64,000 nt of DNA, taken from Rhina ancylostomus (lineage: Eukaryota). Below the pieces are notes generated by a model. That model was not told the origin of the DNA, made no database searches, and saw only the letters and a list, made by a program, of their open reading frames with translations. A program made the position numbers and the translations under genes. Numbering within the stretch: the first letter of the stretch is position 1; every line of letters begins with the position of its first letter. The stretch is from NCBI GenBank assembly GCA_030265395.1, contig JARFYF010000051.1:32993434-33057433 (forward strand). The letters are read 5' to 3'. Positions 20,436-63,085 of the stretch are shown one piece after another.

Positions 20436-20449
20436 CCACAAGAGGGAGA
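20436..20449 (+). promoter_or_regulatory. CTCF-like binding motif
   Basis: CCACAAGAGGGAGA in non-repetitive intronic sequence; motif match only. Confidence 0.35.
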
Positions 20450-27904: not shown

Positions 27905-27965
27905 ATTACAGCTGGAAGTAAGTTCAAGTCAGGTTCAGCAGGGGATCACCATAGTTACACTAATG
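27905..27965 (+). CDS. CALD1: Caldesmon penultimate exon (ITAGSKFKSGSAGDHHSYTN-G)
   Basis: Acceptor acctag|, strong donor G|gtaagt, 61 nt, phase 0-1. Resembles the chicken caldesmon tail VTATGKKSETNG. Confidence 0.8.
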
Positions 27966-31109: not shown

Positions 31110-32501
31110 TTAGAACATGGAACAGTACAGCACAGGAACAGGCCCTTCAGCCCACAATGTTGTGCCAAACCAATTACATTAGTAATAAAATGCCCAACTA
31201 AACTAATCCCTTCTGCCTACACAATGCCCATATCCTACCATTTCCCTCACATTCATGTTCCTATCTAAGAGCTTCTTGAATGCCCCATCATATTTGCCTC
31301 CGCCTCCACCACCACCCCAGGCAGTGCATCCCAGGTACCCACCACTCTCCGTGTAAAAAAAAAACTTGCCTCACACATCTCCTTTGAACTTACCCCCTAT
31401 CACCTTAAGTGCATGCCCTCTGGTATTAGACATTTCAATCCTGGGGAAAAGATAACGGCTGTCTACTCTAACTGTGCCTCTCATAATCTTATAAACCTCT
31501 ATCACATCTCCCCTCAGCCTCTACCGCTCCAGAGAGAACAAATCAAGTTTGTCCAACCTATCCTCATAGCACATGCCCTCTAATCCAGGCAGCATCTTGG
31601 TAAACCTCTTCTGCACACTCTCCAATGCCTCAATATCCTTACAATAATGGGGCGACCAGAACTGAAGGCAACACTCCAGATGCAGCCTAACTAAAGTTTT
31701 ATAAAGCTGCAGCACAACTTCCTTGAACTCAGTGCCTCAACTAATGAAGGCAAGAATGCCAATATGCCTCCACCCTATCAACCTGTGGAGCCATTTTCGG
31801 GGAGGTAGGAACTCATACCCCAAGATCCCCCTGCTCATCAACACTGTAAGTGTCTTGTCATTAACAGTGTACTGTCTCTTTACATTTGATCTCCCAAGGT
31901 GCAACACTTCACATTTGGTCAGGTTGAACTCTATCTGCCATTTCTCTGCCCATATCTGGAACTGATCTGTATCCTTTGCCAGTCTTCTACACTATCCATA
32001 ACACCACGAATCTTCATATCATCTGCAAACTTACTAACCACCCATGTACATTTTCATCCAGGTCATTTATATACAACACAAACAGCAGAGGTCCTAGTAC
32101 AGATCCCTGAGGAACACCACTAGTCACAGACCTCCAGCTAGAATAAGTCCCATCAACCACTACCCTCTGCCTTCTACGGGCAAGTCAGTTCTGAATCCAA
32201 ATGATCAATTCACTGTTGATCCCATGCTTCTTAATCTTCTGGATGAGCCTCCCATGAGGGACATTGTCAAAGGCCTTACTAAAATCCATGTAGACAACAT
32301 CCACAGCTCTACCTTCATGAATTGCCCTCATCACCTCGTCAAAAACTCAATCAAGTTAGTAAGGCATGACTTGCCCTACACAAAGCCATGTTGACTGTAC
32401 CTAATTAGGCTGTGGTTTTCCAAATGCTCAGAAATCCTTTCCCTAAGAATCCTCTCCAGTAACTTCCCTACCACTGATGTGAGACTCACCAGTCTATAGT
32501 T
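31110..32501 (-). mobile_element. 5'-truncated CR1 LINE
   Basis: Minus-strand MLQLYKTLVRLHLECCLQFWSPHYCKDIEALESVQKRFTKMLPGL plus further RT motifs. The 3' tail is at about 31112. Confidence 0.92.
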
Positions 32502-32600
32502 NNNNNNNNNNNNNNNNNNNNNNNNNNNNNNNNNNNNNNNNNNNNNNNNNNNNNNNNNNNNNNNNNNNNNNNNNNNNNNNNNNNNNNNNNNNNNNNNNNN

Positions 32601-33035
32601 NATCCTACCACTTCCCTCACATACACGTGCCTATCTAAGAGCTTATTGAATTCCCCTATTGTACTTGCCTCCACCATCATCCCAGGTGGTGCATTCCAGA
32701 CACCCACCACTCTCTGTGTAAAAAAAAAACTTGCCCCACACATCTCCTTGGAACTCCTCCCTGCCACCTTAAATGCAAAGGTCCCAGTACGGATTCCTGT
32801 GGAATGCCACTAGTCACTGACTTCCAGTTAGAATAAGTCCCGTGGACCACTATCCTCTGTCTTCTACGGGCAAGCCAGTTCTGAATCCAAACAGCAAATT
32901 CACCTTGAATCCCATAAATCTTAATCTTCTGGATGAGTCTCCCATGAGGGACCTTGTCAAACACCTTACTAAAATCCATGTAGACAACATCCACAGCTCT
33001 ACCTGCATTAATCAACCTTGTCACCTCATCAAAAA
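32601..33035 (-). mobile_element. Second, internally deleted CR1 fragment
   Basis: FFDEVTRLINAGRAVDVVYMDFSKVFDKVPHGRLIQK...SGIPQESVLGP joined directly to 3'-terminal CR1 sequence. Confidence 0.88.
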
Positions 33036-33364
33036 ACTCTTTCAAGTGAATTTCTACTATTCTTTGTACTTGTGGAAGTCTTTTAGCTTGATATCTTCTC
33101 TTTCTAAGTTTGTTAGTAAACAAGTTGCTGATCTATCCAACTGGAATCTCTTTTATGAGTATATAACTTTTCTTACCAGATCAAATACTTCGGCATCTCC
33201 TATTTATGCATTTACCCATTGATGGCACTGTAGTGTTAGTTTATTGTTTTTTTAAGAAATTATATTGACTCAAATATGAAACCTGGACTGTGTCTATCCC
33301 TCTTCCTTTTAAATCAAATATAAAGTTATGATTAATATCTTCAGAATGTTCTCACACTGATGAA

Positions 33365-34534
33365 ATTGGAATTGATTCATTATTGTCACATGTACTGAGG
33401 TACAGTGAAAAACTTGTCTTGCATACCATTCATACAGATCAATTCATTACGCAGTGCATTATACCATGCAAAATAAAGTTTAGCAGCTGCAGAGAAAGTT
33501 CAATGCAGGTAAACAATAAGGTGCAAGGTCATAACGAGGTAGATTGTGAGGTCAAGACTCCACCTTATCACACTAGGGAACCATTTAATAGTGTTATAAC
33601 AGCAGGGTAGAAGCTGTCCTTGAGCCTGGTGGTACGCGCTTTCAGGCTTTTGTATCTTCTGCCCAATGGGAGAAGGGAAAAGAGAGAAATTCCCAGGTGG
33701 GTGGGGTCTTTGATTATGTTGGCTGCTTTACTGAGGAAGCAAGAAGTATAGACAGAGTCCTTGGAGGGGAGGCTGGTTTCTGTGATGTGCTGAGCTGTGT
33801 CCACAACTCTCTGCAGTTTCTTGCTGTCCTGGGCAGAACAGTTGCCGTACCTAGCTGTGTTCTGTCCAAATAAGATGCTTTCTATGGTGCATCAATAAAA
33901 ATTGTTAAGGGTCAACGGAGACATGTCAAATTTCTTTAGCCTTCTGAGGAAGTGGAGGTGCTGGCGTCCATGTGGTTGGCCCAGGACACGAACTTGAAGC
34001 TAGGAACTTGATGTTCTCAACTGTCTTGACCTCAGCACCATTGATGTAGACAGGAAAATGTGCACCCACACCCCTTCCTGAAGTCAATGACAAGCTGTTT
34101 TATTTTGCTGACATTGAGGAAGAAGTTGTTGTCATGACACCATGTCACGAAGCTCTTTATCTCCTTCCGGTACTCCAACTCAACATTATTTGAGTTATGG
34201 CCCACTACGGTGGTACTATCTGCAAACTCGTAGATGGAGTTAGAGCAGAATCTGGCCATGCATTCATGAGTGTATAGGGAGTAGAGTAGGGGGCTGAGGA
34301 TGCAGCCTTGTGGGTCACCAGCGTTGAGGATAATCATGGTGGAGGTATTGCTGCCCATCCTCACTGATTGCGGTCTGTTGGTCAGGAAATCAAGGATCCA
34401 GTTGCAGAGGGAGGTTTTGACTCTCAGGTCTTGAAATTTGATGATGAGTTTGCTTTCAATTATAGGACTGAAGGTGGAGCTGTAATCAATAGACGATAGT
34501 ATAATGTAGGTGCCTTACTGCTCAGATGCTCCAG
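33365..34534 (-). mobile_element. Rex1/Babar LINE reverse-transcriptase fragment
   Basis: GDPQGCILSPLLYSLYTHEC...FADSTTVVG...LNVSKIKQLVIDFRK and IIKDPTHLG...GRRYKSLKARTTRLKDSFYP. Confidence 0.9.
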
Positions 34535-35261
34535 NNNNNNNNNNNNNNNNNNNNNNNNNNNNNNNNNNNNNNNNNNNNNNNNNNNNNNNNNNNNNNNNNN
34601 NNNNNNNNNNNNNNNNNNNNNNNNNNNNNNNNNNNNNNNNNNNNNNNNNNNNNNNNNNNNNNNNNNNNNNNNNNNNNNNNNNNNNNNNNNNNNNNNNNNN
34701 NNNNNNNNNNNNNNNNNNNNNNNNNNNNNNNNNNNNNNNNNNNNNNNNNNNNNNNNNNNNNNNNNNNNNNNNNNNNNNNNNNNNNNNNNNNNNNNNNNNN
34801 NNNNNNNNNNNNNNNNNNNNNNNNNNNNNNNNNNNNNNNNNNNNNNNNNNNNNNNNNNNNNNNNNNNNNNNNNNNNNNNNNNNNNNNNNNNNNNNNNNNN
34901 NNNNNNNNNNNNNNNNNNNNNNNNNNNNNNNNNNNNNNNNNNNNNNNNNNNNNNNNNNNNNNNNNNNNNNNNNNNNNNNNNNNNNNNNNNNNNNNNNNNN
35001 NNNNNNNNNNNNNNNNNNNNNNNNNNNNNNNNNNNNNNNNNNNNNNNNNNNNNNNNNNNNNNNNNNNNNNNNNNNNNNNNNNNNNNNNNNNNNNNNNNNN
35101 NNNNNNNNNNNNNNNNNNNNNNNNNNNNNNNNNNNNNNNNNNNNNNNNNNNNNNNNNNNNNNNNNNNNNNNNNNNNNNNNNNNNNNNNNNNNNNNNNNNN
35201 NNNNNNNNNNNNNNNNNNNNNNNNNNNNNNNNNNNNNNNNNNNNNNNNNNNNNNNNNNNNN

Positions 35262-35445
35262 ATTCCCGTCACTGTCTGTAAGGAGTTTGTATGTTCTCTC
35301 GCATCTGTGTGGGTTTCCTCCGGGTGCTCCGGTTTCCTCCCACATTCTAAAGACGTATGGGTAGGTTAATACGGGGTTTCAAATGGGCGGTGCGGTCTCG
35401 TTCAGCCCAAAGGGCCTGTTACCACACTGTACATAAAATTTTAAA
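35262..35445 (+). mobile_element. V-SINE with its 5' part lost in a gap
   Basis: V-domain ggagtttgtatgttctc...gggtttcctccgggtgctccggtttcctcccaca. Confidence 0.8.
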
Positions 35446-35494
35446 AATTATTTCAAATTTGTAACAATTTGTCAGAACTACTTTCCAGGAATGC

Positions 35495-35632
35495 TGTTCT
35501 GACAAAAGGGTTGCAAACCTGAAATGTTGACTGTTTCCCTCTCCACAGATGCTGCCTGACCTGTTAAGTGTTTCTAGCATTTTCTGTTTTCCTTTCAGAT
35601 TTCCAGCATCTGCATTTTTTTCTGATTTTTAT
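35495..35632 (+). mobile_element. Penelope terminal-repeat fragment
   Basis: ctccacagatgctgcctgacctg...tttcagatttccagcatctgca, preceded by a degenerate hammerhead core. Confidence 0.6.
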
Positions 35633-36429
35633 TTGCCTTGTGTTCAAATGCTGATAATATCTTGATTTGGATTAGTTCTGATAGACTTAGTTCATCACCT
35701 TAGATTCAGATGTCCATTTGTTCCTTTGTATTTGGCTCTCTGTGCCATTCCTATCACCACATGAGAGTTGTTTGTCAGGGAATTATTTTTCTGTCAAGTC
35801 TCTGAGAGAGGAGCAATAAGACTTTTTTGCACTTAATGTGTGTTTTCTTGGTTTAGAGTTATAAGTTGATTTGTTTTTCATTGGAGAGAAAAAGATTAAA
35901 ATGAGATATGAACCAGACCTTCAAAATGCTAAGATCCAGATGATATATAACAGGCAGACTTTTTATCCTAGCCAATGATTACTAATTAAAGCACACAACT
36001 GGATATTAATAGGTATTGAGAGCCTAGAGACTGAAACAAAAGTTTCCTCGATAATAGTGGCAGTGTAACAGAACCTCCTATGGAAAATGGCATTTGTTTT
36101 CTTTAATTCCTTTGATGATGCTAGAATTAGATGGGAATATAAACTATGAAGTTAGCCAAAAACCTTGTATTATGTAATGAACCATCGGCCCTATGGAGAT
36201 ATCATCTACAAAAGGCATCTAGCTAGGGTTTAGGCATCGAGATGCTATTGCAGACAGGCAGTTTGGTTTTACCCAGTCTTCACTTTGGAGATTAAGCTGC
36301 AAATCACAGCATTGTCAGTAGGTTTTACATTCATATGCACCATACATTGCAAGTAACCAAATAACATGTTCTCATCCATTGATTTGCTTTGCTTTGCTTT
36401 CTTCTCTTTGCACTTATATACTGTATACT

Positions 36430-36442
36430 TACACACACACAG

Positions 36443-36497
<55 letters not shown>

Positions 36498-36502
36498 TAT
36501 AT
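36430..36502. repeat. Compound (CA)n(TA)n microsatellite
   Basis: Read directly from the sequence. Confidence 0.95.
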
Positions 36503-37596
36503 CTTGTGCATCTGTGTGTGTATACTGTGTATAAATAAATAAATGGATGAATATGTATGTATATATATAAATATATCAATGCAGATTATAAGGGTAAATA
36601 TAAGATAGAATTATACAGCTTGGAAGCAGGCCCTTCGGCCCAACTGGTCCATGCTGACCAAATAATTTCGTGTTGGTATGTTTCCAGTCCAAATTCCTTT
36701 GGGGGGCCAGGAGCAAATGTTGCTGGAATTCATGCTTGTTTAGTTAGAAGAATAGAAATATTTTGGATTCATGATGGTCCTGGCGAGGTTGGTTGAAAAG
36801 GCTGAGTCATTTGGCAACCAGGCAATATTGTCTCTCCTTTACGTTATCTCCATATTGTGTAATGATCAAGTACCCTGGAACATTTAGCTCCTAATCTCTC
36901 CATCTTGCAGTTAGTTTTCCATAATCATAATAACTTATAAGTTAAACTTATGTTTCTTCTTTTTTTTTGAGCTGTATTAAGAACTCAGCAACTGAGCTGG
37001 TGGTCTTGTGTGACAGCAAGTTGTTAAACCTACCACTTTCTAATTAGGAAAATAAGAGTCCTGTTGCTTATTTAACCAATCCATATAGAGAATTACATGC
37101 TACATCAGGGATATTACATCAGAGCCACATGCATGTGTTTTAAAAAGTCAGTATTTTTAATAAATTCACATTGCTGTGGAAGGATTGATTGGAACTACAG
37201 AACAGGAGTTTTGTGTTACTGTGGTCTTCTGCTCACTTGCACGTGGTAAGCCAAAAAGGAACTTCCAGGTATTCCTGAATCAGCTCATTTTTTTCTGCTC
37301 CCCATGGAAGCTGAGTGACTAGAACAGGAGTTCTTTGATGTTCCATTTTTAGATAGGTTGGATTTGCTTGGCAAGTATTGATGGACAAGTATTGTTGGAT
37401 TTTCAGGCCCTGTTAATTGTGATTCATGCTTGATACCAATAGTATATAAACCCATGTTTTCAATGTTTTATATCCATTGGTCGTATGACATCTTAANNNN
37501 NNNNNNNTCTAAACTGCAGATCATGTTTGGTTTTTAACTATTTATACTTTATCTCTGGCACAGAACACATTCGATTTCTCTTTTTTTCTTCAGCAG

Positions 37597-37625
37597 GGAT
37601 GGCACATTATGAAAATGAACCTTAA
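37597..37625 (+). CDS. CALD1: Caldesmon terminal coding exon (G-MAHYENEP*); an alternative acceptor at 37594 adds one Ala
   Basis: Long pyrimidine tract followed by cagcag. Phase 1 gives GMAHYENEP*, comparable to chicken GLRQFEKEP*. TAA at 37623-37625. Confidence 0.8.
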
Positions 37626-47820: not shown

Positions 47821-48369
47821 CTGGAATGAAGTACTGCACTTCTCACAACGCACAGACCCAAGGGATCGCCACAGGTGCAGACTTCACAAGGGGAATACTG
47901 AGCAATAAGGTGACGTGTGATGGGAGCCTGGTTTTGACCATGTTTGTAGCCAAAGCAATGGGGGTGTTAGTTGCTGTGGAGCCAGGGGATAGTGACTGAA
48001 ACAAAATGTGGGCTGTTCATCAGCAGTGACCCTGAGATCATGCCCAAGTCACATGCGTCCTGGATTTGTTCCCAAATGAACTGAAGATTCCGAGGCAGAT
48101 ATGGAGAGTTCCTGGGTTTGGCAGGCCAGAGGGATTAATTTTAGATTGCTTCAGCAAAGAGCAGTACAGTGACAGCGAGATGCATGCTCCATCATCTATA
48201 TTAAATAAAGAAAAAAATCCCCTGCACAATTGGTGCTAACAGCCAGTGGAATCTNNNNNNNNNNNNNNNNNNNNNNATCAAGTGCTAGTTGTCGGTACCC
48301 TTGACAGGCACCCATGCCCTGCCTCAACGAAACAAAGCAGCTGCTCAGCCTTGCAAAGGACATAATTAA

Positions 48370-48670
48370 TAAAGCCAATGCAAGGATCCGAGTCAGTCCC
48401 CAAACCTCCAACACCCACACCTCCCTTCCGCACCAATCCACACACATCCGCAGCCTCTGCCCTCCCTCCCTGCCTTTGCACTAGGCCGCCCCTTGGCCAA
48501 TGGGAAGGCGCGGCGCGGTCACGAGCCGCCCGGGAGGCGCGCGCGCTAAATGCGGCCGCGCGCCGGGGTGCGCGCACTGCTCCAGGCAGGGGCGTAGGTG
48601 CGAGCGGCGCTGCTTGCTCCTGGGCTCAGGTAAGAGAAGGTGAGCGGCGGCGGCGGCTATTTGCTGCATT
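48370..48670 (+). promoter_or_regulatory. CpG-island promoter with three CCAAT boxes (48375, 48433, 48497), a GC box (48484-48492) and a GC-rich first-exon region
   Basis: The only dense CpG cluster in the window (about 48485-48660), followed by the consensus donor CAG|gtaaga at 48630. Confidence 0.8.
48560..48629 (+). other. Non-coding first exon of the troponin T-like gene (start approximate)
   Basis: Ends at CAG|gtaaga, lies in the CpG island and has no ATG. Vertebrate TNNT genes have a non-coding exon 1. Confidence 0.6.
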
Positions 48671-51589
48671 GGGCTGGATCTTTATACATTTGATCTTCGC
48701 AAACGTGCGGAGATAAAGTATTAATGCAAAGGGGGCCATTCCATAGTGACGTTTATATTTATTGCAGAAAAAGTCTTATTAGTACGAGTGCATAATTAGT
48801 AGTTAGCACCTTTTAATTTCACTCATTCTTATAGTTTGGTTGCTAGGGGTGGGCAGTCGGGTCACTATAGTCATTTTGAAGTTAAGACCAAACTGTAGAC
48901 TCATAACTATAGGCAAAGAATTAATGAGTGGTTTGTTTTTTAGAGTTCCATCACTTTTTTTTTGGTGTAGTTCTTTGGATCCGAATTATTGTTACAATTT
49001 TCTCTCAAGGAGAACTGGTTGCACAGGTAAATGTTAGTGTGAGATCATTTGGGGAACATTTTTACCTTTTTTTTGTAAACAGCACCAAGTACCAACTGGC
49101 ACTATTAATGGAATATTTAAATCCTTTGATGGGATGAAAGTTCTGAAATAGCTTAAAAGGTTCAAAGTCAATAACTTTCCTAGAGCATAGGTATTATTTA
49201 TCTCAACAAGGTATGAAGGAATGTCTCTTGGGACAGATGACGCAGCTGATCCAAATCCACTGGGGTCTCTTTCCATTCTTCTCCAAAGAAGGAAAACCCA
49301 GCAGTGTGAAGGCTTGGAATTGTGATCCTCACCACCAGATGTTCCTTTCTGTTGTTCTCACCTCCCGCCCGNNNNNNNNNNNNNNNNNNNNNNNNNNNNN
49401 NNNNNNNNNNNNNNNNNNNNNNNNNNNNNNNNNNNNTCTCACCTCCCCCCCCCCCAGTCCCCTGCACCAGCAGCCTAGCTGGCCCTCGTACCCCCGCACC
49501 AGCAACGCAACTGGCCCTCCCCCCCCCCCACCAATTCCCCAACAGGTGAAGTGTAACACACAATTCCAACTCATGATATGTGCAGTTAACTCTCCTAGTA
49601 GTGCTCTAGTTTTTTTCAATGCAAGTATAGCTATATAGAGGTGATAATCCATGTACAAAATTATATGAAGTTTGATTCATGAACTTTATTTTTAAATCAA
49701 TAAGGAATGAATGGTAAATGTTGGCCTTGCTGGCAAGGATGAAATCCAATGGATGGATTTAAAAAAAGAAAATTTTTTCCTTCAGTTTTGAAAAGTTGCA
49801 AGCTATTGAACTTTAAATAATATGCATTCTTCAAAGGAACTTTCTATTTTTGGTGTGTATTGTAAGATTTTTTCATGCCAAAGATTACACATTACTCATT
49901 CCCAGAATGTGTGTTTGTTGACTGAATGTCTGGAAACAAGTTACTAGGCTGGAGGGCAGTTAAAAATCCTTGTCACCACATTTGGCTTTTGAGATCTACT
50001 GCATGCTTTCATGTGACCTCTGACTTCAGAAGATAGTCAAATAAACACTGTAAGACTCTGGCTTGGACTGATTTATTAGTGAAGAAAAATCACCAAGGAT
50101 TGTGAATAATGAGTGTAGGGATCATGTTATATTTGCAAACTGAAATGCCAAAACAGACATATAAAAACTGAAGAAATGTATATGAAAAGATAATCACCTG
50201 TACCCCACTTAATGTTCTGCCACATTGCACAGATACATCATAGTGCTGTAGGGCCTGGAGTCAAAATGCCCACAGTATGTGCCCTTATGTAATTTTAAAA
50301 AGGCACGCCTGAGGCTGCAGGCTCCTGAGTGGGAACCTGGCATGAGCTCCTGGCCTCTACCAACAATACCACAAAGGAAAAATGGTGATGTTATTATTGC
50401 TTGGCTTGGTGTAGAGTGAACCACTGAGGTAATGTGCAGGGCTGTTGGTGTTGGGCAGGCTGGGGTGAGCTGTGCAGTTGCTCAGTGCTCGGGTGTGCCC
50501 AAGATGCACTATGAGTGTGGCCCATTGCTCCACAGCCCAGGGATTTCTCAGTGGTGACCACTAACAGCCAGGGAGAAAACCTCCAGCTCTAGAGAGCTGT
50601 GCAGACAGACAGAGATAGGGGCAGACTCCTGCTTCTATCACACCTCACAGGAGGTGGCGAGAAGCTGTGGGATCCAGGCAGACTGTCAACACATGGAGCA
50701 GGTGCTGCTGATCCTCAGCGTTGGGCCACACACAACGTAAACCCCTGAGCCATTCAGCCTCAGTGTCTTCCTCCACACTGAGCCATACAGTGATGGGGTC
50801 ACTTTAAGCACTTCATTGCTGCAAGAAAGCCAGTGGAGGGCTAAGTCCCTGAGCAGATTCCCGGCATAGCAGTGTGCAACGTCAGACAGGGGAAACCATG
50901 GTTTGCACCTGGTTCTTTGTACAGCAGTGCTGTCAGTAATGCACTTCTATATGTACATGACTCCTTTTGGTGCTGATTCCACAAGCATTCTCATTCCTCG
51001 GGTGGAGCGCTAAGTGAGGCACAGTGTATGGATTATTTCCTTATTTGATATGAAGGATTGATGTCCAGTTTAGAGACATGTAAATGTTAGGTTAGCAACA
51101 GATTCATAACAGTTCAAATAGTCTCAACAGAGTACCTGCTGACTCCCGTTAAGTAGTTCTGGGACTCTGTTTATTAACAAGTTGGAATTCTTGTGATGTG
51201 GCCCTTGATACCTACTGACCTAACATAACTTATAGAGGTACAGCAATAGAAATTAGTTCCAGTTCTTTTGCTTTATGGGTGGGAATATTAGCAGCATTTC
51301 AGGGTTCATTCTTGATGTCTAGAAAGCCTCCTGTATTTGCCAGATGTCAAGCATATCTGCCTAAAGCAGGCATTGCCTAAATAACAAAGAGACTAAGATC
51401 TGTTTTGGGACACCTTGAGGAACTCGGCTGTCCTGAATATGCTTGGAATTAAGGGAGGTGCAGCCTAGCACATGGGACTTGTCCAAGGTGGCTTGGTGGT
51501 TCAGCTCAGCACTTTCATCAAGCTGCTGCCGTTCTGGTTCTCATCAGACTTCATCCAGCAGGGCTCCATGTGACAATCATGGGGTGACT

Positions 51590-52050
51590 GGAGGTGTACA
51601 TTCGTATGGTGCAGAACAGGCTCTTCAGTCCATCATGCCCATGATAACCATCAAGTAACTATCTCTGCTAATCCCATTTACCAGCACTTGGCCAGCAGCT
51701 TTCCATCCCTTGGTGATACTTCAGTGTTGTGAGATTACCTGCCTCCATCACGCCTTCAGGCAATGTGCTCCAAATTCCAACCATCCCTCAGATGGGAAGA
51801 AAATTCCCTCTTCTGATCCACTCTAAATTTCTTGCCCTTTACCCTAAGCTTGTACCCTCTAGTTTTAGATACCTCTGCCATAGGACAGATAGCAGCAAAA
51901 TTTCCCTATCTATGCCCCTCATAATTTTGTATCTGTCTATCAGGTCTCTCCTCGGATTCTTCCACTTCATGGAAAACTAATGCCAGCCTATCTAGACACT
52001 TCCCTCACAACTGAAAAGCTCCATCCCAGACAACATGCCGGTGTATCTTC
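51590..52050 (-). mobile_element. CR1 LINE 3' fragment
   Basis: Similar to 31110-31600 (tctatgcccctcataattttgta, ctaatcccatttaccagcacttgg). Confidence 0.7.
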
Positions 52051-53621
52051 ATTTAGGAGCATTTTTCAAAAAGATCATTGTGCACAAAGATAATAAGATC
52101 TGTGGTTGCTAGCAGCTCAAAGCTAATTTTACAAACTGTCTGACTTGATCTCCATTCCAACTCAATGCAAGTAGGAATTCTGTAGTAAACGCTAGCAAGT
52201 ATGCACTTGGCAGGATAAAATGAACAGTATAATTTTGCACTGGGAGCAGAGACCTGGGAATATAATTGACAAAATTACATTGAGGAAGTCATTAAAAAGG
52301 CAGAAGGGCCTCTGTGCCATAAGTTCTTTATAAAACAGCTCCATCCAGAGGCTCTGTCAGATTCAACTCACCACTCGTCATCAAGGATGTTAAAGCCTTT
52401 GAAAGGATGCAGAAAGGAATCATGGCAATGATCTCGGGGACTTCAGCTATGACTTGGAGAAGCTTGGTTTGGAGCAAAAGGTTATTTGTTGCTAGAGCAA
52501 TGCTGGTTGAAACCTGCCTTGTTGCACTGGGGAAGGCAGTGGGGCAGGTGTCAGCCACGAGCAGCTCTGGCTGTAGATGGTCTGGCTGTGAGCAGCAACA
52601 GTCTGAGCTCACTGCCTGCAGAGCAAATGTGAGGCACTGCCAGTGGTGAGATCACAAGTACTGACATTCTGAAGGAAGACCCCAGATTCTTGCTCACCAG
52701 AGGTACTGGCACTTTCCCATGCCAGGTTGTCAGGGGTCCCAAGATTTGGATGAAACTAAATTGCACATGTCCCTCTTTGCCCATGACAGGGTCAAGTTGG
52801 GTGACATCAGTGTGATGATGACATGCACTGATTTAATTTTTATCAGCATTAGCCTGCGCTGTAGATTTTGGTTGATCTTTGCGTGTGCTACTAAACTAGC
52901 TAAAAACCCCTGCCAATTGCATCTATATCACTGGTATTCCTGCATCTGTTGGCATGGAGGTGCCCCCACATCCTGACTGGTGAGCATAGACTCCATTTCA
53001 AAGACCAGGTGTAGGTGGGAGAAAGGTGCTCTGAGACTTCTTGATATCTCCCACAGATTTTTTAGCAAGGTGAACAGAGCAACAAATGTCCACGGTTTCT
53101 GCAGTAGCCTTTTCAGTCAGACTACCTTATCAGAGTCCTCGCCTGAGTCACTGGAAAAGAACTAATGCCAACCCTGTCCAACTGGGAGTTGGCATATTTC
53201 CTTAGTAATTGGCCTGGCTGCAGTCTACTGGTACCATGTCTCGCTGTATAAAAACCAGGTATGCAGGTGAGTTGTGGAATCTGGGATAGTTGAGGGGAAT
53301 GTGAACAGAATAAAATGGGATTAGTGTAGGCTCAGTGTGAATGGGTGCTTGATGTCTGCCACAGACTCTGGGTGAAATGGTCTGTTTCTGCACTGCATGA
53401 CTCTGACTCCAAGGTACCATGATTTGAGATGGTGCTTAGGTGGTGTCTAGCGCAATGATGCAATGTACTCCTCCTGGCAACGTCTCCTCATTGGTTGGAG
53501 TGGGATTTGGGTTTCGCTGGGGTCTAGTCAAGTGGAATCTCCTGCAAATCTGCAATGATAAAGGCAAAAGGATATGGTCACGGTGAGGGGAATGCTTAAA
53601 TAAGGGGAGCAAAATGAAACA

Positions 53622-53915
53622 GTCAGTGGTGCACCTAGTAAAGGTGCTACCTCACAGCACCAGTGACCAGAGTTCGATCCTGACCACGTGAATTTCTCCC
53701 AGGTACTCCAGTTTCTTCCCACATCCAAAAGATGCGCAAGTTGGTTGGTTAATTGGCCACTATAAATTTCTCCTAATATGAAGGTGAGTGGTAGAATCTG
53801 GGTGGAGTTTGGAATGTGGGGAGAATTTCTTAATAGAAAAACAAAAGTGGGATTATTGTTGATGGATGTTTGATGGAGCAAAGAGGCTGAAGACAGGCCA
53901 TATGACTCTGACTGT
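53622..53915 (+). mobile_element. Degenerate V-SINE
   Basis: gagttcgatcc B-box and actccagtttcttcccacatccaaaaga...ggttaattggccac. Confidence 0.65.
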
Positions 53916-54413
53916 ATGACATACACTGGTAGAGCATCGATGACAGGAGAAGGGACTTGAAAGGGCAGGTTAGTTAAGTGCATACTGTTGCTTGCTGTTA
54001 ATTCAGATGCTGCACATGTTACATGCTTGGTGGTAGTGTGAACTGCATCAATTGGAACCCTGATGTTATTTAGCATGGGATTAGTTTGATATGAGGGTAT
54101 TGATTCAATGACATTGCTGAAGACAAGGTTATAGGGTAACAAAGGTGGGCACTTTTTCACAAAGAGTATGGTAGATAAATTGCACACTTGCAGGGATTAA
54201 GCAAAACCAATGCAGATTTCCTGGGCTGCAATATCTTGGAGTATTTATTTATCTGACTTGTACACATTGCACAGAAGAAGCTGCTTCCATATGCCAGTAA
54301 ATGTATTGAGCCATTACAGAAGCCAACTTTAAAAAGAATATAGTCTTATTCTTGCAGATAAATTTAATCTGGTCACATTTTATTTTTGTTAGATACATAT
54401 CAATTGTGCAAAT

Positions 54414-54448
54414 ATGGCGGACATTGAGGATACCTTGGAAGAGTTGCA
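54414..54448 (+). CDS. Troponin T-like gene (probable TNNT4), first coding exon MADIEDTLEEL-Q; the exon begins at 54393
   Basis: Acceptor tttgttag| at 54392, good Kozak context AATATGG, donor CA|gtaagt in phase 2. Resembles TNNT2 MSDIEEVVEEY, whose first coding exon also ends in phase 2. Confidence 0.78.
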
Positions 54449-54549
54449 GTAAGTGTTATGAAATATATTTTGCTATATTGCAATCTCAAATGGAAAAGAC
54501 ATTTGTTTTATTTTATTGTTTTGATTAAATTTTTTTCTTTCCCTAACAG

Positions 54550-54563
54550 GGAAAAGGAGGAAG
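54550..54563 (+). CDS. Troponin T-like gene, 14-nt microexon (EKEE)
   Basis: Acceptor ttttctttccctaacag|, donor AAG|gtaaga, phase 2-1. The same pattern as the tiny G-GAG-CAG-GAA-G exon 3 of TNNT2. Confidence 0.75.
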
Positions 54564-54899
54564 GTAAGACACTAACAATATTTTTGATGCTTCACAAATT
54601 TTATTTCCTTCACATTACTTTTTTCAGAAGAAATGTCTGCCAAAGAAGGCAAAATATATATTTTCCAATGCAGCTTGTTTTATTTAATTTCCAGTACATT
54701 TTTGATTTCTATTACATTTTTAATGAAGTAATAAAATGGATGCTGGGAGTAAAAAAAAGTTTTTCCAAAAATTGACCCAGAAATTCTGCAGCATGTTATC
54801 AGTGTAAATACTTGGATTGGTGAATTGGTATAGCCAGTAAATCTTCTTGGATTTAGGCTGTTGTAGAACTAACTGGAGTGTTTCAAATATTTACAATAG

Positions 54900-54956
54900 T
54901 AGTAGAAGAAGAAGAAGAAGAAGAAGATCTAAAGGAAGAGACCAAGTTGGAAGAAG
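54900..54956 (+). CDS. Troponin T-like gene, 57-nt acidic exon (V-VEEEEEEEDLKEETKLEE); tandem acceptors could start it at 54903 or 54906
   Basis: Branch-like ACTAAC at 54868, TAGTAGTAG acceptors, donor GAAG|gtagaa, phase 1-1, Glu-rich. Confidence 0.72.
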
Positions 54957-56751
54957 GTAGAATTCTTGTCTGCATTCTTAAAGTCACTTTATTTGTATGT
55001 TTTGTATTGCTCTGTTATGAGTTAATTTCATTCCATCAACCATGAAATTTACAACGTCAATTTTCCAGAAGGTTGTCTCATGCTGTCCATATACAAACCA
55101 TTGCCACTAAGAAATTGTAGATGTGCTTGAACTATTTTCTGATGCATATTCCCAATGGGCCCATGTTGATAATTGGCACTTATCAATAACATTGATGATA
55201 ATCGGTTAATTCTATGCATAGTGATCTAAGATTGGAAGAGATATTGTATCTAAGAGATAACCTCTTGCTGTATATAAGATGTCCATGTGACAGGACATTG
55301 CATTGTCACATATGCTGTCCATTGAATTCTACATTAAACTGAATTCCCATCTATCTGTACTTGGGTTCAACTTTATGTTCAAGATTGCATGATAATGTCT
55401 CATGGAAGACAAGCAGTTCTCCTAATTTAGTGGGTGTCAAAGAGGTGGAGCAGTTAATGCTGCCACTTCATGACTCTGGTGACTTGTATTCAGTCCTGAC
55501 CTCCCTAAAAAAATTGCTGGTAGATTAGTAGGCTACTGCAAATAACCCCTTAGTGGAGGTAAATGCAAAGAATCAAAAGCAAAGTGATGGATATGAAGGA
55601 CAATGAATTGCAGGGCTGTAGGGAATTAGCAGAGGGAGAATGGGAATGATGGGATTGTTTTCCTGGGACCTGGTATAGAGCTGAGCGGCCTCCTGTATTG
55701 AAGTAATAACATCTTGGCCAACATTCCTAACCTCAGCCATTACGAGTAAAACTAAATCAGCCAGTTGTGCCTCCTATATTGTGGGATCTCATGAAACACA
55801 AAATGGTTGCCTACATAATTGTAATTACAGTAAAGGGGAATAATAACACCTTTATGCTTCAGAAATGTGTGTTGCTAATTTGTACATTAATATATCCTCA
55901 TTTTTGTTTCTATCTATCCGCAAAGCAAAATTGTTGTCCCTTTTACTCCAACCATTAATTTTATTAAATTACTTTTTTTGTGCTGTGATAAATCCATTTA
56001 TGGGTTATCTATTAAGTCCCTCTCTTTTTGAACATTGGCTAAATAATCCATAACGAAAACTGGTACCTTAGGAAGGACTATAACCTGAGTGATGAGCAGT
56101 TTCGATTTAAGGCTTTTCTGGTGTTATATGTTTCATGAGGATGCACTAACAAAGTTTCCACAAGTTCCCATCTTAACAAAAAGAATTATTAGGAAAGGAG
56201 CCTTGTTTAGGCTGTAATCATTTATGCTTTGTTAGGGCTTTTGTTTTTGGAATTCAAAATGGTCATTCCAAGATTATTGAGACACCTGGTCTTTGTGTTC
56301 CTTTTGCTCCCTGTACAGATAATACTTACTTTTCAACCTTCTGAGATTGCCTTAATATATCCAAACCTCAGTGGCAAATGAGCATATTCTTTCTTGAGTA
56401 TTTGCAGAATTTCAATCATTTTTTTAAAGTGTCCAATATTTGCTGGAAATGGATAGAAATTAAATGTTTAAAGAAAACTCTAAAACATTTAATGTATTGC
56501 TGTGCAAATTGATCAGAACATCTTTGAAATTGTCAAAAATCAACCACCACGAGGCAGCATTAAGAAATAGAAGTGTCAGCTTATTCATTTTAGATTTATT
56601 TTTGGTTGTTTAATTCATTGATTTATTACAGCCTGCGTAATACTCATGACCAGGGTTAACTCAATAAGTGTATTGGTATGATGAATTATGGCCATCATAC
56701 ATGACACCAAGTTGTCCTTACTTGTATTTTTTTTCTTTATCCAATTGACAG

Positions 56752-56793
56752 AAGACTCCTCTCTGCTTCAGACTCAACAACCAACTGATGAAG
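56752..56793 (+). CDS. Troponin T-like gene, candidate 42-nt exon (E-DSSLLQTQQPTDE)
   Basis: T-rich tract then gacag|, donor GAAG|gtacaa. Symmetric phase 1-1 and open in frame. Confidence 0.6.
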
Positions 56794-59039
56794 GTACAAG
56801 CTATTATCCATGTGTTGGTAATTCCTTTTGCTAAGATGGTGTAGTCTGTGAATTTCTGTATGTTCCTGAAAGCAGGCACTACATAAGAGGTAGCGCTACA
56901 TACAGAACATCTGTTATCAAACGCAATAGCTCTCAATTAAACAGCAGCACCCAGTACAATAAATATTAAAGTCATGGCATATTTCTTAAAGGCACAATTG
57001 TAATTATGTTTACTATGCTGCTTCTCCCATTTTTTTTAAAAAAAGGAAACTAATGCATACAAATCATCGACTATTTGCATATATGAAATTATGTAATCAA
57101 TATAGTCACAAGTTCAAGAAGTTACAAATTAATTTGATCTCTTGATCTCCTTATTCATTGAACTTTCTGGCAAGCTTCACTTGACAATGCTGAAGTGTCT
57201 ATTGAAGACAGTAGAAATTCCAGTGGATAATATCCTCTTGTATGCTCTTGCATCCTGTTCTGCACTTGACTTCATGGCAATGAATACATTGTATTATGTA
57301 TTGTGGAGCAACACCTTGTGTCACTTGTATGAAACTGTCTACAGAAGTTTAACACAGAGTCTAATAAGAGTTCACATTAACCAGTGGTTAGAATTGCACC
57401 ATGTATTTGGTACATTACTGGCTAGCATGAACTGTTGCAACATTGCCTACTTCAGTTACGACTTAACGTTCTCCAGTTTTAACATAGCCTTGCATCCTGC
57501 AGATTCACTGAAGACATGCAACACTTCCTCTTTGCTGCTGTCACTTTTGAAGCAATAAAGTCATCTTCTCTGACCTTCCCTTTCTGAATGGTCTTCAAAA
57601 CTTTCACATTTGCCTTATCGCAATCCAGCTATGCTGTATCAGGTGGACATTAGTGAGTCCATGTCCTCTGTAATATTTCTCGTAGAATCTTCAGAGCCTC
57701 AGCACTGCCTCCAGTTTGCAAGGCAGTCCTCTCTTAAAACATCCAATTCAACCTGTCATCTATTCAGTCATTCTGTTGGTCACAAGAATCTTGTTGACAC
57801 TGAGCCCTTCCCCAGAACTTGTGCAGTTTCAACATCTCTATCTGTGCGAACTTTGCCAGGACCTATCAAAACCATCTTGCACTCAGCCTTTTCCTTCTCG
57901 CCTCATTTGGGATCTCTGGTCGTGATGCAGCTGTTGCCGTTAAAACCTCTGATTTGGCTCTCTATTGTTCAACTGATTACAGATTCCTCCTATACACTGT
58001 CTGTCAGAGGTTTGTAAAAAGTCCCGGTGAAACTGCATGGTCCCTGTTAATAGCGGCCTTTAACATGGGCTGCTCAATGGTCTGTCTTTAGAAAAAACCA
58101 AGCCCTGGATGGACTCTTCCCCACGAGTATCACCCCACAGTCTAATTCTGGGACTAACTTGTANNNNNNNNNNNNNNNNNNNNNNNNNNNNNNNNNNNNN
58201 NNNNNNNNNNNNNNNNNNNNNNNNNNNNNNNNNNNNNNNNNNNNNNNNNNNNNNNNNNNNNNNTGCTAGAGTTTTGCTGCCATCACTTGTTGTCTCTGAC
58301 TAAACCTGTATAACTTACTGTCTGACACTCGAATCCATGACTCTCAAAGAATGTCTTCAGTATGTTCATTGTATCTCTGATGTTGTGTCTTTTGTTACTA
58401 TTTCCCATTCTCATTGCAAACCCACTTCTGGAGATATGTAAAGCTCAGATAATCGGATATCCAGTTGTTCAAAAACCCTGATGGTTTGGTAGCTGGCTCA
58501 CCAGGTGATGCTTCCAATGCTCCTTTTAAACTCACTGGGGGCCCTGTTCCCACACTCCCTTAAAATTCACCAGGAGCCACCTTTTGTACTCCCTTAACTC
58601 ACCAGGGTTTGTTTCCCACATTCCCTTTCAACTCACCCTGTTCAATGAAACATTATTATATTACTGTGTTATACATCTTAAAACAAAGTGAATTAAGTGT
58701 GTTGGGGTATCAATGGGAGAAACACCCAGTAGTCTGGAAAATCAGCTGCCTGGATTTGCTGCAGCTTCCTCTCAGGTTGTACTTTTTCTTGCTCTTCCTG
58801 ATAGTTGCATGGCAGCCATTGAACTATCGCTCGAGCCACAATCTGTAACCCTGGTCAGGCAATCTCTTGTATTCTCATCCAACGTAGAAGGATGCCATTC
58901 AGCCCATCAAGTCAATGCTAGCTCTTGGTGCATTTCCATCAGTCACATTGCCTCATTTATTTCCCTGTAACCTATTCTTTACCTGGAGATGCCTTTGCAC
59001 ATGTCAAATCCACCAGACCAATGGTTTGCTCGCTTTGAC

Positions 59040-59530
59040 TGTGAGTGGGAGAAGAACAGTGGGGGTGTGGGTTACCTGAAGTTGGAAAATTCAACGTTCA
59101 TACCATTGTGTTGTAAACCACCTAAGTGGAATAAGAGATGTTGTTCTTCCAATGTATGTATAGCCTCACCGTACCACATAGCAGTGGAGAAGACCATATC
59201 GCTGGTGGTGTTCTCCCACATACATTCACCTGTCCACTTAGGTTTCCTCTACCCTTTATTCACTTTTGTCATCCCCTTCTCCTTCCCCTCCCTGCCTGGT
59301 TACATCTGCCTATCATCCTTTATCTTCAAACCCTCTTTCCCCCCAGTAACTATCAATTATCCAACTATCAGTTATTGGCCTTTTACCCACCCTGCTTCAT
59401 ATTTCTGTATAATGGCAATCCTTCCTCTCCCCTCTCGGTCCTGATGCAGTGTCAACCCAAAAGCTCGATTTTTGCCTCCATAAATGTTGTTTGACCTGCT
59501 GAGTTCTTCCAGTGTTTTTTTTCTGCATCT
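59040..59530. mobile_element. Penelope-like fragments in inverted arrangement
   Basis: A minus-strand endonuclease-end piece, then a pyrimidine-rich tract and the gacctgctgagttcttccag terminal unit. Confidence 0.5.
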
Positions 59531-59919
59531 ACGGTGTATTTTGTCTTGTAAAATTGACAAACCTATCACACAAAGTAAAAGCACCATGTGTGGGTGTAGT
59601 GGATGGCCAACAGGTGCTGTTGCACCTGATGTGGTGCCTGCACTGTGAACCCAGCTCTTGCCATGTGCTTGCGCAGCAGGGAGGTGAGCGTATCTGCTTG
59701 CTCACCTGATCCATCTCGCAGGTGGAGCCAGATGTAGCAGTCTAACTGCTCCGCAATCAACAGCCAGCAGTAGAGAGTCTAGCCTGACTTCATGTCTCCA
59801 GACGCAGATGCCCCAGCTCATTAGTAATCTTGTTTGTCCTTTGACAGGTCTTGCTTGCCGTCCACATCCCCCTCCCCTTCACCCAAATCACCACAACTTA
59901 AAACATTAAACATTACATT

Positions 59920-60139
59920 ATTTATACAGCATGGTAACAGGCCCTTCTGGCCCAATGAGCCTGCACCGCCGAATTACGCCCATGTTAACCTACTAACCGG
60001 TACGTCTTTTGGAATGTAGGAGGAAACCAGAGTACCCAGAGGAAACCCATGACGACACGGGGAGAACATACAAAATCCTTACAGACAGCAGTGGGAATTG
60101 AACCCTGATGGCTGGTGCTGTAACAGTGTTACGCTAACT
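59920..60139 (-). mobile_element. V-SINE
   Basis: ggaggaaaccagagtacccagaggaaaccca...gggaattgaaccc is the reverse complement of the V-domain and B-box. Confidence 0.8.
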
Positions 60140-62539
60140 NNNNNNNNNNNNNNNNNNNNNNNNNNNNNNNNNNNNNNNNNNNATAGTTAAGTTGCTGATA
60201 ACTAGTCTATGAAGCTGCTACTATAGGTGTACATAGCACTTAGGAGCAGATCAACAAAGGCCTGACATTTATTGTAAACAAGGACTTAAAAATAATTTAT
60301 ATTTTTAACAATTAATAATATACTATACATTTGAAAGTGAAGACTAGACAAGTCCTGACTGATGAAGATTTACATGCTGTTCAAGCTACATCCTTGGTGT
60401 AGATCTCACAAATGGATAGAGTCATACAAATATGACAAATAAACAAATCTGAGGAATGCTAAATGTTTATAATACTGTTCATCACTTGATTTACTCATCT
60501 GCTTTATAATCTTGCAATTCAGAATCATATTGGAAATAATATTTTTTAATTTGTTTTTCCCCAACTGCATTTAGTTTACAAGATCATGAACCAACTTTCA
60601 GATGTACTGTGGATGCTGAAAATTTAAAATAAAGATTAGCACTCAGCATGTCAAAGGAAAAACACTGACCTTTCACCAGTTCTGAGATGTTAACATTAAC
60701 CTACTTCTTGTAGGTTTCTCCACAGAGAGCCCTCTAATGAACATTTACTGAATGCTTCTTGCAACACATCCAGAGCTACAATATATCACTATATTCATTG
60801 AGGGAGAACTGAACCATGTAATTACAACAAAAATTGCCATACTTTATTGCTCCTGCACTGCTAACCTTTGAGTAAGATAATGTGTCACCAATTAAAGAGG
60901 AAAAACAGTGTTAAGATGCCCGGCAGATTCAGTGATAATAGAAAATACATTAGCAATATTTTCCATGATCCAGGAATACAATACCAGACTAGAAATATGT
61001 TGGGTTCTTCCCATCTAATGCTTTGTTGGCAAGGAACTTCAGGGGGGTAAGAAAATCCCTGTTGAATTTCAGCACCCTCATGTTCAACATAAGCTAGAGA
61101 CTATTGCACAGTGAAGTATACATCTATGCTAACTACTGATCACAGTACACAATCAGGAACTTGCTATGTCAATCTAGAAGTTTGCAAATTTGCTTCTGGT
61201 TCCTGCAAGGGGGCAGCTCAATGCATGGTATCTAACACAGCACAATATGTCTATATGCTACTTCCACATTTGCACATGGATGCAACTGCTGCAGAAGAAG
61301 ACCCTCACAATGAAGGGGAGATCCACTTCAACAACACTCCAAGGAGACTTGCCTGCTCATCCAAGCTCATGAAGTTCAGTGTGGGGAATTAGTTGCATGG
61401 CATTAAAAAGTTCTCTCACTGCAACTCTTCCTCAGGGCTCCCATATACCACCCCTACAGACACACCCCATCACCACGTCTCAACACCTGCCCTCCCATCC
61501 AGCAGATGACTGCATCCCCTGCTTGGTTTCTCCTGACTTTCTCCAGGTCCCAATTTGCCTGACATTCTGGTCTTCCACCAGCACCCCTCCCCCATTGCAA
61601 CATGTGACACTTCCCATCAGTCTGCCTATGTTCCTCTGTTCGTTCCACCATTCCTTTTATTCACAATAAGCATACGAGGCCTGTTCTATTGAGCATAATG
61701 TCTCTGGTTTTAAGTGCAATAGAAGTTTGCAGCAGTGGGCCCCCTCACTGAATATGCAGTGGTGTGACACTCACCACGCATTTAATGTACCTTTTTGAGC
61801 AGGGAAGGATCTCTGGGATTATATCTCACAATATTGTAGAAACAAATGAGTTTCTTGAAAATGAATAGCTACCTTTATTAAAAGTAAGCCAGATGGCAGA
61901 AAGACCCTTGCATAACACCTGGCTGCTTAATTGGTCAGACAAATGAGAGACTGTTTCTGACCAGCCAGTAAAACGCTCTGATTAATTACACAGTTTTGGG
62001 TCAGATAAGGGTAACTGTGTAAGGCTGACTTTCAAATTGTCTCTTTTTGGCTTGGAGCCTTGTTTGCCATTCTTGTATGCTGGAAACTCTCAACATTTGA
62101 CTTAGTATTTTCCCTCTCTTCAATTTCAAGCGAAGAATAATTGAGGTCAGTAACCTCTGATTCCCCAACTGGCAGACTTGGCAAGATGGCTCTTCACTAA
62201 CTGCATCTTGAAACTGTCATCTCTTAAATCTGGAAATAAATATTCATTTAAAATAAATAGAAACTTGGATGGATGACAGTAACAAAAATATAACAAGAGA
62301 CACTGAGCATTCTGAAGGCATTCTTTAAACTCCTGGGTTATTTAATTATGTTTAGCCAATTTTTATATCACAAGAAACCAATTGTGGATTAGATGTGAAA
62401 ATAGTAAGCACAACTGCATTCAGTTCGCCTTATAGTTTCATATGTTGCTTTCTGACAGTGTAGAAAATTGCCTGGATATGTCCTGTTGTGAACTGGACAA
62501 ATCCATCCCAATTTACTTTCAATCATCAGCAAAGTGATG

Positions 62540-62990
62540 AAGAGAGTAGCTGCCTACTTACTTGAGTGGTTCCCAATCTACTGAAGCATCCAGTCCCTCA
62601 GAACTGGCGCATGGTGGCTGCTGTGTGTACCAGTTACAAAATGCACTACAACTATTTTCCTAGACTTCTCCAATAGTATCTCCCAAATGCTCCATCCCTA
62701 CCACCAAGAAGGATAAGAGCTTCAGACACATGGATGCACCATAACTTGCAGTTTCTCCTTCAAGTCAGCAACCATCCTTCTATCTCACACACTTCATCAC
62801 ATGGAGGTATATTGCTGCCCCTTCGATACCATGGGGAGCAAATCCAAGACCTCCCTCCCCAACAGTAGGACGATCTTCACCTGGGCAACTACAGCAGTTC
62901 AAGAGGGCAGGTCACCACCACCTTTTCAAGCACAGTAAGGGATGGGCAATAAATGCTGGCCTTGACACTGATGCTCCCATCCTAAAAAAT
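62540..62990 (+). mobile_element. CR1-like LINE 3' fragment
   Basis: gcagttcaagagggcaggtcaccaccaccttttcaag...agggatgggcaataaatgctggcc, followed by an A-rich end. Confidence 0.6.
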
Positions 62991-63073
62991 ATAACGAGAA
63001 ACTGTAATTAGTGTTCAATTTACTTCATGTTTAACTCAACTCTTTTTATCTTCAATCTTCATCCAACCTGCAG

Positions 63074-63085
63074 ATCCTCCCCAAG
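63074..63085 (+). CDS. Possible 12-nt troponin T microexon (D-PPQ)
   Basis: Long pyrimidine tract then ctgcag|, phase 1-1 and open, but the donor AAG|gttttg is weak. Confidence 0.25.

What the first reader, a model, noticed from the sequence alone, without database searches (positions are those of the whole stretch)
48560..63085. Hidden microexon gene after caldesmon: probable fourth troponin T paralogue (TNNT4)
Seen: a non-coding exon 1, an ATG exon ending in phase 2, a 14-nt phase 2-1 microexon, then symmetric phase 1-1 exons ending in GAAG. Spliced, they give MADIEDTLEELQEKEEVVEEEEEEEDLKEETKLEEEDSSLLQTQQPTDE..., which the ORF track does not show. Established: this is the architecture of the TnT hypervariable N-terminus. 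The paralogous blocks are TNNI2-LSP1-TNNT3 and TNNI1-LAD1-TNNT2, with LSP1 related to caldesmon, whereas human CALD1 is followed by AGBL3 and no TNNT. From memory, a TNNT4 class retained in cartilaginous fishes was reported by Joyce et al. (Genome Biol Evol 2023), so the gene class is probably described but functionally little characterised. Inference: this is the TnT ohnologue lost in mammals.
Basis: partly seen in the sequence, partly recalled or inferred. Interest (0 to 1): 0.85.

Follow-up and report, generated by a model that had tools for sequence, protein, structure and literature searches.

The report
Fourth troponin T gene, 5' end
This is the start of a muscle-regulating troponin T gene (TNNT4) that sharks, rays and other fishes kept and land vertebrates lost; the gene class is already published, but data behind that paper suggest it works in shark body muscle more than was reported.

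Summary
Observation confirmed, interpretation supported. Six small + strand exons (about 48.5-63.1 kb) follow a CpG island 11 kb after the caldesmon stop codon. Read by eye against the Joyce et al. supplement (PMC9825255), they match yellow stingray heart TNNT4: 14 of 16 N-terminal residues, 4 of 4 for the 12-nt exon, and 18 of 30 translated 5' UTR positions running ungapped across the exon 1-2 junction. The CALD1-TNNT4 neighbourhood is in print, so this is an orthologue of a known class. The conserved TnT core lies beyond the window and was not tested.

Corrections: TNNT4 is also in ray-finned fishes and lungfish and was not found in any tetrapod surveyed; exon 1 probably starts earlier; the last exon ends CAAG.

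Side result: two smooth-hound skeletal-muscle contigs labelled TNNT3 in that supplement look like TNNT4, 8.5% of TNNT, where the paper counts 0%. Best guess: a slow/red-muscle troponin T whose acidic N-terminus is tuned by cassette exons.

The parts
1..37625 (+). 3' part of caldesmon (CALD1), synteny marker: coding exons 1-70, 952-1092, 8104-8147, 8249-8330, 10335-10478, 12518-12613, 22986-23075, 27905-27965, 37597-37625 (stop 37623-37625)
   Evidence: Nine collinear tblastn hits to Callorhinchus milii caldesmon P0001 residues 310-558 at 71-93% identity; Pfam PF02029 hit on 4 of 4 exons tested, 2 of them above the curated cut-off; best homologue named caldesmon
48351..48800 (.). CpG island over promoter and exon 1; CCAAT at 48497, GC boxes at 48486 and 48526
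   Evidence: Six top CpG windows of the 64 kb; the motif matches have no chance control
48516..48629 (+). TNNT4 exon 1, non-coding; 5' end approximate, donor GTAAGA after 48629
   Evidence: Donor 6 of 7 consensus positions; translated in frame, 12 of 23 positions match the stingray TNNT4 contig; 6- and 7-residue runs at about 48516-48561 match the 5' end of a smooth-hound contig
48550..48597 (+). Upstream ATG opening a 15-codon uORF, out of frame with troponin T
   Evidence: the stingray contig has a Met at the equivalent place but in frame
54393..54448 (+). Exon 2: 21 nt 5' UTR, ATG at 54414, 35 coding nt, ends in phase 2
   Evidence: the first five residues MADIE occur 11 times in the supplement, 9 in rows labelled TNNT4 and 2 in the smooth-hound rows reassigned here
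54550..54563 (+). Exon 3: 14-nt phase 2-1 microexon
   Evidence: 15 of 20 pyrimidines, donor 6 of 7; e2+e3 give 14 of 16 residues identical to stingray and 12 of 16 to skate TNNT4
54900..54956 (+). Exon 4: 57 nt, phase 1-1, Glu-rich, ends KLEE; weak tandem acceptor
   Evidence: Branch-point-like CTAAC at 54869; last 9 residues 8 of 9 identical to stingray TNNT4
56752..56793 (+). Exon 5: 42 nt (39 nt from the second AG), phase 1-1 cassette
   Evidence: 9 of 13 residues identical to Greenland shark and 8 of 14 to mako TNNT4; QPT occurs 2 times in the supplement, both in TNNT4 rows; absent from the stingray heart contig
63074..63085 (+). Exon 6: 12-nt phase 1-1 microexon (D-P-P-Q), last recognisable exon in the window
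   Evidence: 4 of 4 to stingray, 3 of 4 to skate, 2 of 4 to catshark TNNT4; shuffle tests

Best explanation
The region is the promoter and first six exons of TNNT4, the fourth troponin T ohnologue (TNNI/T locus IV), in a cartilaginous fish, probably a ray. Shown here: exon anatomy, open frame, CALD1 neighbour and match to TNNT4 transcripts of relatives. From established knowledge: the downstream core binds tropomyosin, TnI and TnC and passes the Ca2+ signal to the thin filament; the acidic N-terminus binds no myofilament partner but alters the conformation and tropomyosin affinity of the core. Inferred: e4-e6 are frame-neutral cassettes whose inclusion shifts N-terminal net charge between -7 and -22 and so tunes Ca2+ regulation. 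Inferred, about 0.55: the main tissue is slow/red skeletal muscle alongside TNNI5/TNNI4, with a minor share in heart. The confidence given is for gene identity plus a working TnT role, not for the tissue.
For: Exons and frame. CALD1. Published synteny and class. Match to stingray TNNT4 across the exon 1-2 junction (18 of 30 UTR positions; 14 of 16, 8 of 9 and 4 of 4 coding; by eye), against 8 of 16 for stingray TNNT2 and 6 of 16 for TNNT1. Cassette behaviour: of 7 chondrichthyan species with a TNNT4 sequence, 3 carry only an e5-like segment, 3 only an e6-like one and 1 both; eel has two TNNT4 isoforms differing by 8 N-terminal residues. Role of the variable region. Tissue: smooth-hound muscle 8.5% TNNT4 with 25% TNNI4+5; shark TNNI5 richer in red muscle; zebrafish tnnt2d used as a slow-muscle marker; tnnt2e splicing changes with cold in skeletal muscle of 3 fishes.
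Against: The conserved core is not in the window: none of 8 acceptor candidates after e6 reads like the next TNNT4 segment. Exon 4 alone has no Pfam match. No tree was built and identity counts are by eye on acidic, low-complexity sequence. The first 16 residues alone do not separate paralogues: hammerhead TNNT2 scores 10 of 16, equal to Greenland shark TNNT4 and above elephant shark TNNT4 (8 of 16). No RNA from this species was seen, and cassette use is inferred across species. Tissue: TNNT4 is listed as not found in the other 3 of 4 chondrichthyan muscle samples, including bull shark with 8% TNNI5 (shallow), and a zebrafish study ties tnnt2d to heart function.
Confidence: 0.92

Rival explanations
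1. Same gene, different role: TNNT4 is a minor cardiac or developmental isoform, not the slow/red-muscle TnT. This rival concerns tissue only.
For: TNNT4 contigs in 4 of 7 chondrichthyan hearts at 0.03-1.0% of TNNT; sister to cardiac TNNT2; zebrafish tnnt2d overexpression rescued cardiac defects; CpG-island promoter.
Against: The highest share seen anywhere is in skeletal muscle (8.5%, or 7.0% from the full-length contig alone); tnnt2d falls when hedgehog signalling is blocked and is listed as a slow-muscle marker.
Confidence: 0.35
2. TNNT4-derived but truncated or pseudogenised in this species.
For: The core is unseen; e4 has a weak acceptor and e6 a weak donor.
Against: Intact ATG, borders and frame in 8 of 8 combinations; intact CpG island; UTR conserved with a transcribed stingray orthologue.
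Confidence: 0.04
3. Another TnT paralogue: TNNT3 beside LSP1 (also a caldesmon-family gene), or TNNT2 or TNNT1.
For: All TnT N-termini are acidic; LSP1 is a CALD1 paralogue next to TNNT3; eel TNNT3 contigs also start MAD.
Against: The upstream gene matches caldesmon exon by exon to its last residues; full-length chondrichthyan TNNT1-3 rows read start MSD and lack e5- and e6-like segments; the UTR match is to TNNT4.
Confidence: 0.02
4. The acidic N-terminal extension of TNNI5, which lies in the same locus.
For: TNNI5 has a Glu-rich extension and belongs to locus IV.
Against: TNNI5 sequences seen start MSD or MSE and continue into a Pro-rich tract; the paper puts CALD1 and BPGM between TNNI4/5 and TNNT4; five coding exons and the UTR match TNNT4.
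Confidence: 0.01
5. Chance AG...GT segments strung together by the reader.
For: 635 + strand and 490 - strand generic candidates exist in the window.
Against: Collinear match of all six exons to TNNT4 sequences of other species; e6 pattern in 0 of 100 shuffles.
Confidence: 0.01

Closest known systems
TNNT4 of cartilaginous fishes (Joyce et al., PMC9825255); nearest: yellow stingray heart contig TRINITY_DN46373_c0_g1_i1
   Same: Position next to CALD1, Ala at residue 2, exon 1-2 UTR, N-terminus, KLEE and D-P-P-Q segments.
   Different: The window also holds e5, which the stingray contig skips; e4 is 19 codons against 16; the upstream ATG is out of frame here and in frame there.
Zebrafish tnnt2d and tnnt2e (classed TNNT4 in the supplement)
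   Same: Orthology class; tnnt2e starts MAD.
   Different: Teleost duplicates with unrelated cassette sequences; tnnt2d starts MSD.
Mammalian TNNT2 (sister ohnologue) and TNNT3
   Same: Acidic hypervariable N-terminus built from short alternatively spliced exons.
   Different: Neighbours are LAD1 and LSP1; cardiac TnT has a constitutively phosphorylated Ser2, where this gene has Ala.

Membership tests
Troponin T | Conserved middle and C-terminal core binding tropomyosin, TnI and TnC | not testable with these tools
   Lies beyond the window end; no candidate exon in the 915 nt after e6, 100 of them N.
Troponin T | Acidic hypervariable N-terminus encoded by short exons | tested here: met
   53 residues, net charge -22, five coding exons of 12-57 nt; family description.
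Troponin T | Alternative splicing of the N-terminal exons | tested here: inconclusive
   Frame-neutral in 8 of 8 combinations; variable use across 7 species and within eel; no reads from this species.
TNNT4 class | Locus IV synteny: CALD1 beside TNNT4 | tested here: met
   CALD1 stop at 37625, same strand, about 11 kb upstream; published order.
TNNT4 class | BPGM and TNNI4/5 beyond CALD1; PTPRO and RERG nearby | not testable with these tools
   Outside the window.
TNNT4 class | Sequence closest to TNNT4 rather than TNNT1-3 | tested here: met
   By-eye counts on supplement rows and motif counts for MADIE and QPT.
TNNT4 class | Falls in the TNNT4 clade of a full-length tree | not testable with these tools
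   Only the hypervariable region is in the window and no TnT protein was held as a stored sequence.
TNNT3 locus II | LSP1 as upstream neighbour | tested here: not met
   Neighbour is caldesmon, 71-93% identical over nine exons; no LSP1 sequence was compared directly.
TNNI5 | Acidic then Pro-rich N-terminal extension | tested here: not met
   No Pro-rich tract in the five coding exons.

The most novel reading that the evidence does not exclude
TNNT4 is the red/slow-muscle troponin T of sharks and rays. With TNNI5/TNNI4 from the same locus it forms a fourth, locus IV troponin that tetrapods lost, and its cassette exons e4-e6 are spliced by tissue or temperature. The published 'seldom detected' would then partly come from TNNT4 contigs labelled TNNT3 and from sampling white muscle.
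Probability: 0.5. Interest if true: 0.5.

Novelty: new member of a known kind. Interest (0 to 1): 0.3.

Why it matters
The gene itself is an expected orthologue: class and neighbourhood were published in 2022. What it adds is modest. It gives the exon map of the TNNT4 variable region in a probable ray, with two cassettes (e5, e6) and a conserved upstream element. It also bears on the question Joyce et al. left open, where TNNT4 is expressed. If the smooth-hound contigs are TNNT4, shark slow muscle may use a troponin built from genes that tetrapods lost, which can be tested with existing muscle RNA-seq.

Tried and rejected
Mutually exclusive e5/e6: suggested by six species carrying one or the other, rejected when smooth-hound contigs showed both; both exons are multiples of three and 6.3 kb apart.

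Generic microexon scan: did not discriminate. The ranking puts e4-e6 in the top five of 49 candidates, but its residue set was chosen after seeing the exons, so it is not counted as evidence.

Pfam on exon 4: no match. No database homologue of the TnT exons was obtained, so no tool alignment or tree with TnT proteins exists; those comparisons are by eye.

MAD versus MSD as a class marker: holds among the chondrichthyan rows read but fails for eel TNNT3, zebrafish tnnt2d and reedfish TNNT4.

Muscle promoter motifs and splicing-factor motifs: counted without controls, not used. Rfam: 0 matches. Tandem repeats: 11 rows, none on the exons. The 37.6-48.3 kb gap was judged gene-free only from the ORF list and sequence, not by homology search.

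The elephant shark RefSeq TNNT4 row was set aside for N-terminal counts in favour of its transcript row.

Literature: 'tnnt4' gave 6 papers, 2 of them the Joyce paper and its preprint; 'troponin T + red muscle + shark + isoform' gave only those 2; 'troponin T4' had 0 occurrences in the 10 papers listed. No later study of TNNT4 was found in these searches of an open-access library. Viral and metagenome contig collections were not searched and do not bear on a vertebrate gene. Supplements of the bioRxiv preprints and Table 2 of 10.1101/429704 (an image) were not seen; they may show which tnnt2e exon changes with cold.
Full report
Observation. The exons are real. On the + strand there is a non-coding exon ending at 48629, then exons at 54393-54448 (ATG 54414, phase 0-2), 54550-54563 (14 nt, 2-1), 54900-54956 (57 nt), 56752-56793 (42 nt) and 63074-63085 (12 nt), the last three phase 1-1. 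All five introns are GT-AG, 101 to 6280 nt long. Exon 1 sits in the only CpG island of the window. Splice signals alone are not enough: a generic filter gave 635 + strand candidates, 59 of them open phase 1-1, and passed only e5 among e4-e6.

Upstream gene. Four exons tested hit Pfam Caldesmon, two above the curated cut-off. One exon used as query found 3 proteins among 21 candidates, all Callorhinchus milii at 83%, the best named caldesmon. tblastn of that protein gave nine collinear exons at 71-93% identity, ending at the stop at 37625. So the gene is CALD1, the organism is a cartilaginous fish (inference), and the new gene starts about 11 kb later on the same strand. The gap was not searched by homology.

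Identity. Joyce et al. [quoted passage not shown] I compared the window with their listed proteins by eye. The yellow stingray heart TNNT4 contig matches 14 of the first 16 residues, 8 of the last 9 of e4 and 4 of 4 of e6. Its translated 5' UTR matches the window's at 18 of 30 positions without a gap: 12 of 23 in e1 and 6 of 7 in e2. That is cross-species RNA support for the 5.8-kb e1-e2 junction. The same species' TNNT2 and TNNT1 score 8 and 6 of 16. Skate scores 12 of 16 for TNNT4 against 8, 8 and 5 for TNNT2, 3 and 1. Against this, hammerhead TNNT2 reaches 10 of 16, equal to Greenland shark TNNT4 and above elephant shark TNNT4 (8), so the first residues alone are not decisive. e5 matches Greenland shark (9 of 13) and mako (8 of 14) TNNT4. 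MADIE occurs 11 times in the supplement, 9 in TNNT4-labelled rows and 2 in smooth-hound rows discussed below; QPT occurs twice, both in TNNT4. The e6 pattern occurs once in 64 kb and in 0 of 100 shuffles, or 3 of 100 for a looser form. The closest match being a stingray suggests a ray (inference from 7 species).

What is not shown. The conserved TnT core is outside the window; none of 8 acceptor candidates after e6 fits the next segment. No tree was built and no RNA from this species was seen.

Splicing. Among 7 chondrichthyan species with a TNNT4 sequence, 3 carry only an e5-like segment (elephant shark, Greenland shark, mako), 3 only an e6-like one (stingray, skate, catshark) and 1 both (smooth-hound). 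I first read this as mutual exclusion and dropped it on the smooth-hound rows. Independent cassettes fit best, though these are different species. Eel has two TNNT4 isoforms differing by 8 N-terminal residues.

Mechanism. From reviews (PMC4012202, passages and section 12; PMC5062619, passages): the TnT core anchors troponin to tropomyosin and relays the Ca2+ signal, while the N-terminal variable region binds no myofilament protein but modulates core conformation and tropomyosin affinity, and its exons are alternatively spliced. By inference e4-e6 do the same here. The gene has Ala at residue 2, where cardiac TnT has a constitutively phosphorylated Ser.

Tissue. The paper calls TNNT4 seldom detected. 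In its supplement, 4 of 7 chondrichthyan hearts have TNNT4 at 0.03-1.0% of TNNT. In the dusky smooth-hound skeletal muscle block (tissue), two contigs labelled TNNT3 start like catshark TNNT4. The full-length one carries LLQIRV, whose other 6 of 7 occurrences are in TNNT4 rows, and a separate true TNNT3 contig is present. Their 991.6 and 215.8 TPM are included in the paper's TNNT3 sum; reassigned, they make 8.5% of TNNT, 3.6 times TNNT1. The same sample has 21.4% TNNI5 and 4.0% TNNI4, and shark TNNI5 is reported richer in red muscle. Zebrafish tnnt2d and tnnt2e are TNNT4. tnnt2d is used as a slow-muscle marker (PMC12458187, passages), and tnnt2e is among 29 genes whose splicing changes with cold in skeletal muscle of three fishes (10.1101/429704, abstract and one passage). 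Against: TNNT4 is listed as not found in the other 3 of 4 chondrichthyan muscle samples, including bull shark with 8.3% TNNI5 at low depth; eel muscle has 0.25%; one zebrafish study links tnnt2d to heart defects (PMC11447910, passages). PMC8015194, PMC12994987 and 10.64898/2026.09.24.749599 (passages) list tnnt2e or tnnt2d as muscle genes without fibre type. I put slow/red muscle at about 0.55.

Exon 1. An ATG at 48550 opens a 15-codon uORF out of frame with TnT. The stingray contig has an in-frame Met at that place, and a smooth-hound contig begins with runs matching window translations at about 48516-48561 in two frames. The nucleotide element is conserved and the frame is not, so exon 1 probably starts at or before 48516 and the element is more likely regulatory than coding (inference).

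Verdict. Class and synteny are published, so it is a new member of a known kind; interest 0.3, most of it from the expression lead. No later TNNT4 study turned up.

Noticed in passing
PMC9825255 supplement, sheet 5 rows 135 and 137 (dusky smooth-hound skeletal muscle): Two contigs labelled TNNT3 look like TNNT4 by sequence; together 8.5% of TNNT against the reported 0%.
   Followed up: partly
PMC9825255 supplement, sheet 5 row 168 (bowfin skeletal muscle): A contig labelled TNNT2 starts MADTE and resembles gar TNNT4; possibly also mislabelled, 0.08% of TNNT.
   Followed up: no
PMC9825255 supplement, sheet 2 row 19: The elephant shark TNNT4 entry begins with about 56 residues identical to gar TNNT2 contigs, ahead of the true TNNT4 start; probably a database or annotation artefact.
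   Followed up: no
window 48516-48597: Element around the upstream ATG is conserved between this species, stingray and smooth-hound, but in different frames relative to the TnT start; a 15-codon uORF here.
   Followed up: partly
window 54897-54909 and 56749-56754: Tandem NAGNAG acceptors at e4 and e5; relatives show both 13- and 14-residue e5 segments.
   Followed up: partly
window 27905-27965 and 37597-37625: Caldesmon has two short C-terminal coding exons behind introns of 4.8 and 9.6 kb, matching the elephant shark protein to its last residue; AATAAA at 38223, 38861 and 39001 are candidate ends.
   Followed up: yes
P0001 and supplement accessions: Elephant shark accessions run TNNT4 XP_007902337, caldesmon XP_007902341, TNNI5 XP_007902346, with both troponin genes on one scaffold; suggestive of the same gene order.
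   Followed up: no
window about 31300-34500, - strand: ORF fragments that look like LINE reverse-transcriptase remnants in the last caldesmon intron; judged by eye from recalled motifs, not searched.
   Followed up: no
window, 19 N runs (e.g. 25004-25478, 34535-35261, 58164-58263, 60140-60182): 143 N bases lie in the e5-e6 intron and 100 after e6, so a further microexon there cannot be excluded.
   Followed up: no
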